A stretch of 11,660 nucleotides of DNA from Octopus sinensis (taxonomy: Eukaryota), in contig NW_021826932.1 in assembly GCF_006345805.1 (NCBI RefSeq), forward strand, positions 1 through 11,660, written 5' to 3'. The notes beneath the pieces were generated by a model, which had not been told where the DNA came from, searched no databases, and worked only from the letters and a program-made list of their open reading frames with translations. The position numbers and the translations under genes were made by a program. Shown in pieces: positions 212-518 of this stretch. Position 1 is the first letter of the stretch. Each line of letters starts with the position of its first letter.

Positions 212-518
212 AGTAAAAAGGTAATAAAATAAATTACTATTACCGGTGATCTAGCACGACCCTATACCAGAACCCTCTCTGTTTGTCGGGTATGTTTTGC
301 GTCTGCGCAATGGTCTGAAAAGTTAGAGAATGCAAGTCGGCAGAACCGCACATGCTTCTAACGATATGTACTTCTAGGATAACAAAGGCTGCTTACTGAA
401 GAGTCTAGCCTTGGCAGATAAATTATATTTTTCTGCTAAAAAAAAGATGAAACTGCAGTATAAGACGAGCCGAGTTTGTAAACGTTTTTGATTTTCATTT
501 CATTGAATTTATCCACTT
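212..518 (+). mobile_element. HHR-bearing Penelope-pLTR/retrozyme-like fragment between two (TA)n tracts; diverged relative of the 440-bp array
   Basis: ttttgcgtctgcgca (295-309) is the exact reverse complement of 3834-3848. aaacgtttttgattttca (from 481) matches the minus strand of the array unit downstream of its HHR. An HHR core lies at the equivalent position. Confidence 0.75.
387..471 (+). ncRNA. Type I hammerhead ribozyme motif (HHR-A)
   Basis: Stem I ctta 392-395 / taag 461-464, extendable by ggct 387-390 / agcc 468-471. CTGAAGA 396-402. Stem II gtct/agat with inserted hairpin ttggcaga 411-418 / tctgctaa 432-439. GAAA 449-452. Palindromic stem III ctgcag 453-458. GUA triplet, predicted cut after 460. 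Confidence 0.75.

What the first reader, a model, noticed from the sequence alone, without database searches (positions are those of the whole stretch)
212..518. Diverged paralog of the 440-bp unit provides natural covariation support for the ribozyme
Seen: relative to HHR-B, stem I changes from actcg/cgagt to ctta/taag, and the stem III palindrome from ccgcgg to ctgcag. The stem II base changes from gc/gc to gtct/agat, and the inserted hairpin from ttagcaaa/tttgctag to ttggcaga/tctgctaa. The core and an AGCCTT segment opposite a purine run are retained. Inference: selection on structure; the conserved AGCC internal loop may be a tertiary or protein contact particular to this family.
Basis: partly seen in the sequence, partly recalled or inferred. 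Interest (0 to 1): 0.75.

Follow-up and report, generated by a model that had tools for sequence, protein, structure and literature searches.

The report
Pseudoknotted hammerhead ribozyme in retrozyme repeats
A truncated copy of a repeat carries a hammerhead ribozyme motif whose stems change in matched pairs across about 30 related repeat families, and its 'AGCC' loop is likely one half of a short base-paired pseudoknot that would brace the ribozyme, a known device in an arrangement I did not find described.

Summary
Window 212-518 is a truncated, partly inverted copy of a ~432-bp repeat family (A), 64% identical to the 445-bp unit (B), with a type I hammerhead. The clade has at least 5,600 pattern matches in this genome. 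Across 30 representatives, stem I, the helix II base and the stem III palindrome covary beyond a tree-simulated null (P about 1e-4), so selection on structure is supported.

Two details fail. 'agat' is private to this copy (24 of 28 family copies read agac), and AGCC is not conserved. The conserved part is CC, complementary to a GG 6-10 nt upstream of the core. The adjacent pair covaries (C-G, U-A, G-C; P=2e-4), and one amplified subfamily swaps G-C for A-U. This points to a 3-5-bp pseudoknot between the stem I flank and an internal loop of helix II, not a protein site. Adjacent bases in the 6-nt stem III also covary, implying dimer pairing.

It works like a metazoan non-LTR retrozyme, likely mobilised by a Penelope-like element (partner not found). 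New variant of a known kind; cleavage and circles are untested.

The parts
212..257 (-). Inverted 46-bp piece of the family-A unit (its 3'-terminal hairpin region), ending in (TA)n; about 34 bp of the unit are missing at the junction
   Evidence: (query 1-46 on the opposite strand, 34 bp from 47-307 at C5:7133133/7133168)
258..518 (+). Forward part of the ~432-bp family-A unit, ending 55 nt after the cleavage site
385..389 (+). Pseudoknot 5' strand AAGGC (GG 7 nt upstream of the core)
392..395 (+). Stem I 5' strand; pairs with 461-464
396..402 (+). Hammerhead core CUGAAGA
403..406 (+). Helix II base; pairs with 445-448 (G10.1.U11.1 here, G-C in most family copies)
408..412 (+).
411..439 (+). 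Apical hairpin extending helix II (411-418 with 432-439)
449..460 (+). GAAA, palindromic stem III CUGCAG (453-458) and UA; predicted cleavage after 460
478..500 (+). Clade-wide conserved GTAAAnGTTTTT..TTTCA motif downstream of the ribozyme, function not tested
47..212 (.). (TA)n microsatellite, left flank
519..633 (.). (TA)n microsatellite, right flank
3132..4291 (-). Family B: 2.6 tandem 445-bp units, three hammerheads
8776..9428 (-). Family C, inverted arm with one hammerhead (core at 8990)
9429..10513 (+). Family C: 2.3 tandem ~470-bp units, hammerheads at 9720 and 10191, AGGU/ACCU variant of the pseudoknot

Best explanation
This is a truncated, 5'-inverted copy of a non-coding tandem-repeat family with a type I hammerhead motif, likely a non-LTR retrozyme, whose CC-containing helix II loop is predicted to base-pair with an upstream GG to form a short pseudoknot that would hold helices I and II side by side. 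SHOWN: repeat family, intact core, covarying stems, GG/CC complementarity with a covarying flank, palindromic stem III, tandem and inverted arrays, ends at (TA)n. INFERRED steps: (1) tandem arrays are transcribed; (2) two neighbouring ribozymes pair their stem III palindromes (8-bp self-duplex -11.1 kcal/mol against +2.9 for the lone hairpin) and cut at GUA, with the pseudoknot supplying the helix I-II tertiary contact; (3) unit-length RNAs circularise; (4) a Penelope-like RT/GIY-YIG enzyme nicks (TA)n and copies round the circle from internal 3' sites, giving tandem and inverted arrays. The window copy is solitary and has G.U at 10.1-11.1, so it is likely a weak or inactive relic. Selection acted on the source lineages.
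For: Patterns that do not presuppose AGCC or GG give 792+804 matches against 0+0 reversed controls and 2018+2031 against 0+0. On 30 representatives with a tree built from flanks only and a conditional simulation null: stem I pairs 1-4 are 28-30 of 30 Watson-Crick (P=6e-5 each), helix II pairs 2-4 are 27-30 of 30 (P<=1e-4), stem III positions 2-3 are 28 and 26 of 30 (P=6e-5). Pseudoknot: G-C in 30 of 30; second pair G-C 28, A-U 2; inner pair C-G 18, U-A 5, G-C 3, other 4. Without the post hoc single copy F232 the inner pair gives P=2.3e-4 (25 of 29), and P=0.006 (17 of 21) with multi-copy families only; the second pair gives P=0.02. The six slid controls that could be tested gave P=0.43-1.0, and the inner base does not covary with its stem I opposite (4 of 30, P=0.98). 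Within the long-stem-III subclade 24 copies have GGC/GCCU and 14 have AGC/GCUU, with 2 others, of 40. Tool count on 12 sequences: 89.8% of cells paired, 10 of 21 pairs with double changes, slid versions 30-52%. Adjacent bases 3 and 4 of the 6-nt stem III are complementary in 20 of 22 (P=2e-4), which a hairpin cannot use. Of 80 ends at (TA)n, none is at the cleavage site; most cluster at two sites about 110-150 and 180-240 nt downstream. PLEs with RT (PF00078, E=3e-7) and 804-850-aa frames that also end in (TA)n are abundant.
Against: No cleavage, circle or expression data. The outer two pseudoknot pairs are not significant (P=0.13 and 0.06), so firm support covers about 3 bp, one of them invariant. 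The A-U swap rests on one amplified lineage and may be an A insertion rather than a substitution. Of 23 scattered copies with an altered CC outside that lineage, 21 are uncompensated (expected from decay after insertion, but not support). GG and CC anchors were placed by my rule, by hand for three rows, because MAFFT misregistered them across the clade; 30 representatives came from 29 of 67 clusters. The spacing correlation (rho 0.76) drops to r=0.25, P=0.048 on independent contrasts. In family A a rival helix (GGCU 387-390 with AGCC 468-471) is in the MFE fold. Pair 10.1-11.1 is Watson-Crick in only 9 of 30. No autonomous partner sharing the ribozyme or 3' end was found.
Confidence: 0.78

Rival explanations
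1. The hammerhead is selected, but CC and GG are conserved for separate reasons (a protein or RT contact, or non-canonical loop-loop contacts).
For: One G-C pair is invariant and so uninformative; the outer pairs are not significant. A rival helix can hold the GG in family A.
Against: The inner pair takes three Watson-Crick types in at least four places on the flank tree. The amplified AGC/GCUU subfamily changes both sides. Slid controls are null.
Confidence: 0.12
2. The apparent covariation comes from DNA-level processes (CpG decay, hairpin-templated repair of inverted repeats) or shared ancestry, with no selection on RNA.
For: CCGCGG to CTGCAG fits two CpG deaminations. Single-sequence folds of A and B are not better than shuffles (z about -1).
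Against: The null was simulated on the tree. Stem I and pseudoknot partners are 20-70 nt apart and only 3-5 bp long. Palindromes CCATGG, CCTAGG and CATATG are not CpG products. The core is invariant or nearly so in 29 aligned rows.
Confidence: 0.03
3. The units are detached pseudo-LTRs of autonomous PLEs that amplify mainly as DNA satellites (unequal crossover), with the ribozyme serving the parent element rather than a circular RNA.
For: The preprint 10.64898/2026.07.22.740005 proposes pLTR origin and local tandem amplification. Tandem and inverted structure matches PLE insertions (PMC8557442).
Against: Among 208 ribozyme-bearing loci, 6 distinct places had PLE coding hits. The three strong ones I inspected were separated by (TA)n or inverted. 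The two PLE families examined carry different 3' ends. Arrays are dispersed over many chromosomes with PLE-like ends.
Confidence: 0.07

Closest known systems
Metazoan non-LTR retrozymes (Cervera & de la Pena 2020, PMC7229834; passages and section 14 read, supplement unreadable)
   Same: Type I hammerhead in non-coding tandem repeats, GC below 50% (here 32-38%), 150-450 bp (here 398-483), coexisting with PLEs that carry atypical hammerheads.
   Different: Canonical ones use non-canonical loop 1-loop 2 contacts with a 4-bp helix II. Here helix II is long and interrupted, and the contact is a Watson-Crick pseudoknot. The mussel hammerhead is reported to lack the usual tertiary nucleotides and could be similar; I could not see its figure.
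Pseudoknot-containing hammerheads (Perreault et al. 2011, PMC3088659; passages read)
   Same: A pseudoknot joins stems I and II in about 40% of hammerheads of all three types; disruption lowers the rate and compensation restores it.
   Different: The consensus described there for type II joins loop I with a 3' tail. Here the strand lies in an internal loop of an extended helix II and is combined with a dimer-type stem III in a high-copy animal repeat. I did not see their figures.
PLE pseudo-LTR hammerheads and dimeric type I hammerheads (Cervera & de la Pena 2014, PMC4209133; parts 1-2 of 4 read)
   Same: Short palindromic helix III needing dimers; many covarying families per genome; long helix II.
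   Different: Those keep G10.1-C11.1 and have a poorly defined loop 1. Here 10.1-11.1 is often a mismatch, a defined tertiary helix exists, and no ORF is attached.
Penelope-like element insertions (Craig et al. 2021, PMC8557442; passages read)
   Same: Partial tandems, an inverted 5'-truncated copy, ends offset by a tail, preference for (TA)n.
   Different: Non-coding; the two end sites are about 90 nt apart rather than 30-40; no sequence link to the PLEs examined.

Membership tests
Type I hammerhead ribozyme | Core CUGANGA, GAAA, UH with helix I open | tested here: met
Type I hammerhead ribozyme | Three helices supported by covariation | tested here: met
Type I hammerhead ribozyme | R10.1-Y11.1 pair | tested here: inconclusive
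   G-C in 24 of 28 family-A copies and G.U in the window copy; Watson-Crick in only 9 of 30 families
Type I hammerhead ribozyme | Self-cleavage | not testable with these tools
   needs in vitro assay
Rfam RF00163 Hammerhead_1 | Gathering score 34 bits | tested here: not met
   18.4 bits; the long helix II insert is outside the model
Non-LTR retrozyme | Short tandem units each with a type I hammerhead, low GC | tested here: met
   units of 398-483 bp, GC 0.32-0.38 for A-D; the window copy itself is a solitary truncated derivative
Non-LTR retrozyme | No coding capacity or LTR | tested here: met
   no ORF in the units; PLE protein hits in 6 distinct places of 208 loci
Non-LTR retrozyme | Expression as circular RNA | not testable with these tools
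   only contig-type runs were available
Non-LTR retrozyme | Mobilisation by, or derivation from, a PLE | tested here: inconclusive
   PLE-like insertion anatomy and shared (TA)n target; no shared sequence with two PLE families
Pseudoknot-type hammerhead | Watson-Crick pairing between stem I and stem II regions, with covariation | tested here: met
   (3 bp firm, up to 5 possible)
Pseudoknot-type hammerhead | Rate loss on disruption, rescue on compensation | not testable with these tools
   bench test
Autonomous PLE pseudo-LTR | In-line RT/GIY-YIG ORF | tested here: not met

The most novel reading that the evidence does not exclude
A hammerhead architecture in which a pseudoknot docked into an internal loop of a long helix II substitutes for both the canonical loop-loop contact and the 10.1-11.1 pair (A.A or A.C in 14 of 30 families), and may form between the two partners of the dimer. 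In family A, a rival helix that sequesters the GG would switch the ribozyme off in the circle and on in the nascent multimer.
Probability: 0.18. Interest if true: 0.62.

Novelty: new variant of a known kind. Interest (0 to 1): 0.43.

Why it matters
It names the tertiary contact for a large clade of animal retrozyme-type hammerheads that Rfam scores below threshold. It also provides a natural series of compensated variants (pseudoknot, dimer palindrome, mismatched 10.1-11.1) that can be assayed directly. Some molluscan retrozyme hammerheads are reported to lack the usual tertiary nucleotides, and a hidden pseudoknot is a testable explanation. Each component (retrozymes, dimeric stem III, stem I-II pseudoknots) is already known.

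Tried and rejected
- AGCC as a conserved motif: rejected.
- Rfam at gathering: nothing.
- Whole-clade MAFFT alignment misregistered the pseudoknot columns. The tool count used 12 of those 29 rows; the clade test used anchored segments.
- Searches for exceptions lacking GG (305 matches, control 31) or CC (169, control 28): the 100 listed in each were mostly one unrelated repeat (I read it as a LINE RT YADD stretch, from recall), chance hits and single decayed or truncated copies; no abundant family lacking both was seen among those listed.
- F232 was first counted as a second G-C to A-U event (P=4.5e-4). It is a single copy picked post hoc, and two other GCUU copies were uncompensated, so it was dropped.
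- Link to a PLE by 3'-end similarity: nhmmer gave no hit on 30 loci of the first family and only E>1 on 20 loci of the second; pairwise, 2 of 22 were marginal in AT-rich DNA.
- PLE fragments beside L107, L149 and L150 are separate or inverted neighbours, not evidence of partnership.
- RNA: no RNA holder listed. Contigs of four runs cover the unit but cannot show strand, ends or level.
- Circular folds of six natural units: z from -0.3 to -5.3, mixed.
- Earlier scan findings: none.
- Literature searches listed no paper whose title or abstract start describes this arrangement. Subscription papers are not held, and the supplement of PMC7229834 was unreadable, which bears on the novelty claim. The taxon words were a guess; the organism was not determined.

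Full report
Observation. The window is a whole small contig (G000:C3403) of a 2.72-Gb genome rich in (TA)n; the organism was not determined. All stated motifs are present at 392-464. The segment aligns to the reverse strand of the 445-bp unit with score 148 (shuffle maximum 73 of 200) and to the ~470-bp unit at 8776-10513 with score 86 (maximum 65). The window therefore holds three related families, A, B and C. A search with 212-518 gave 112 matches from 40 of 796 candidates scored; the 30 best are 91-100% identical. Natural tandem copies give a unit of 431-433 bp, 64% identical to B, 73% to a fourth family D and 50% to C. The window copy is (TA)n, then 46 bp inverted, then 261 bp forward, then (TA)n.

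Of 28 distinct family-A ribozymes, 24 have AGAC before GAAA and only the window copy has AGAT. Family B has GGCC in 53 of 63 and AGCC in 9. The B helix begins with A.A. CCGCGG to CTGCAG could be CpG decay (inference). Two sequences were therefore thin evidence, and a clade-wide test was needed.

The clade. Patterns built from the core, stem III and a downstream GTAAA motif, with no AGCC or GG in them, gave 1,596 matches (control 0) and 4,049 matches for a subclade with a 10-nt stem III (control 0). From 301 loci I extracted 198 distinct ribozyme sequences in 67 clusters at 88% and took 30 representatives from 29 clusters. The 38 clusters left out were near-duplicates of chosen families, copies truncated or chimeric upstream, unrelated hits, and decayed single copies. 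A tree was built from flanks only (344 columns). For each pair, both columns were simulated independently on that tree, conditioned on the observed parsimony score. Stem I pairs 1-4 are 28-30 of 30 Watson-Crick (P=6e-5), pair 5 is 20 of 30 (P=0.003), and pairs 6-7 are not significant. Helix II pairs 2-4 are 27-30 of 30 (P<=1e-4). Pair 10.1-11.1 is Watson-Crick in 9 of 30 (A.A 8, A.C 6, G.U 6). Stem III positions 2 and 3 give P=6e-5. A tool count on a 12-row MAFFT alignment agrees: 89.8% of cells paired against 82.1% shuffled, 10 of 21 pairs with double changes, and the apical hairpin 85.9% paired.

What the loop is. In every representative a GG (AG in two) lies 6-10 nt upstream of the core, and a CC (CU in the same two) lies 5-10 nt after it. 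The five-base strands are complementary over 2-5 bp: AAGGC/GCCUU in A, CAGGU/ACCUA in C, CAGGG/CCCUG in E, UUGGC/GCCAA in F112. The inner pair is C-G 18, U-A 5, G-C 3, other 4. One amplified subfamily has AGC/GCUU in 14 copies where its sisters have GGC/GCCU in 24, of 40 tabulated. After dropping a post hoc single copy, the inner pair gives P=2.3e-4 (29 rows) and 0.006 (21 multi-copy families), and the G-C to A-U swap gives P=0.02. The outer pairs are not significant. Slid partners and the alternative partner in stem I give no signal. Against this reading: 21 of 23 scattered copies with an altered CC are uncompensated, the spacing correlation is weak after phylogenetic correction (r=0.25, P=0.048), and family A has a rival helix, 387-390 with 468-471, in its MFE fold. 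I conclude that a 3-bp core pseudoknot, extendable to 5, joins the stem I flank to an internal loop of helix II. Perreault et al. (PMC3088659, passages) showed that such pseudoknots hold stems I and II parallel in about 40% of hammerheads and are needed for fast cleavage at 0.5 mM Mg2+.

Dimer. In the 22 rows with a 6-nt stem III, the two central adjacent bases are complementary in 20 (P=2e-4). Adjacent bases cannot pair in a hairpin, so pairing between two copies is implied. The self-duplex scores -11.1 kcal/mol against +2.9 for the hairpin. This is the known dimer mode of metazoan type I hammerheads (PMC4209133, parts 1-2 read).

Element biology. B and C form dispersed tandem and inverted arrays at 95-99% identity. 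Of 80 ends abutting (TA)n in five families, none lies at the cleavage site. They cluster at two downstream sites, and the window copy ends early at +55. Arrays that run through the cut site and end internally fit copying round a circular template, as proposed in PMC4209133; this step is inferred. Partial tandems, inverted 5' copies and (TA)n targets are PLE features (PMC8557442, passages). A PLE family with 804-850-aa frames (RT E=3e-7, GIY-YIG weak at E=0.069, a CxxxxCxxC linker like Neptune's) had 18,666 candidates, 150 scored, and also ends in (TA)n. It carries a different, minimal hammerhead and shows no significant similarity to the clade's 3' region; nor does a second PLE family. The partner is therefore unidentified. 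A 2026 preprint (10.64898/2026.07.22.740005, parts 1-3 of 5 read) argues that animal retrozymes derive from PLE pseudo-LTRs and found only 1 of 9 tested dimers active, so activity cannot be assumed.

Verdict. It works like a metazoan non-LTR retrozyme with a dimeric type I hammerhead. The sequence criteria for membership are met; circles and cleavage are untested. The pseudoknot in an internal loop of a long helix II, with frequent loss of the 10.1-11.1 pair, was not found in searches (listings only, apart from the papers named). An unreadable supplement on mussel hammerheads could contain it. New variant of a known kind; interest 0.43.

Noticed in passing
window 8287-8330 (+): A separate small type I hammerhead (4-bp helix II, 6-nt stem III) of another repeat family; a near-identical copy lies in L040.
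   Followed up: no
L157-L186, 3' UTR of the abundant PLE: Minimal hammerhead with U3-A8 core (UUGAAAA in 25 of 30 loci) and mostly CCGG palindrome; a U3-A8 variant is described for Schistosoma PLEs in PMC4209133.
   Followed up: partly
about 140-230 nt after the cleavage site, most families (window 212-257, minus strand): Conserved 3'-terminal module of two or three hairpins ending at the main (TA)n junction; a candidate RT recognition signal.
   Followed up: partly
L128, L130-L139, L141, L142, L144-L156: Older families whose helix II extension is duplicated into two hairpins while GG/CC is kept.
   Followed up: partly
L006, L015, L020, L022, L048, L049, L064, L211, L220: Several further unrelated type I hammerhead families with palindromic stem III, some with long helix II; the genome is very rich in hammerheads.
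   Followed up: no
families B, C, E and others: Young, amplifying families carry A.A or A.C at 10.1-11.1, normally the most conserved pair (14 of 30 representatives).
   Followed up: partly
L107:759-1283: A clade member's inverted arm abuts PLE coding sequence directly; insertion or template switch, single case, expected by chance given PLE abundance.
   Followed up: partly
window 3132-4291 and 8776-10513: Tandem copies differ mainly by 1-nt indels in homopolymers, which looks like long-read error in this small contig.
   Followed up: no
L259 (+ strand copy): Single copy with AAGAC/GUCUC, a compensated change at the otherwise invariant pseudoknot pair; not counted in tests.
   Followed up: partly
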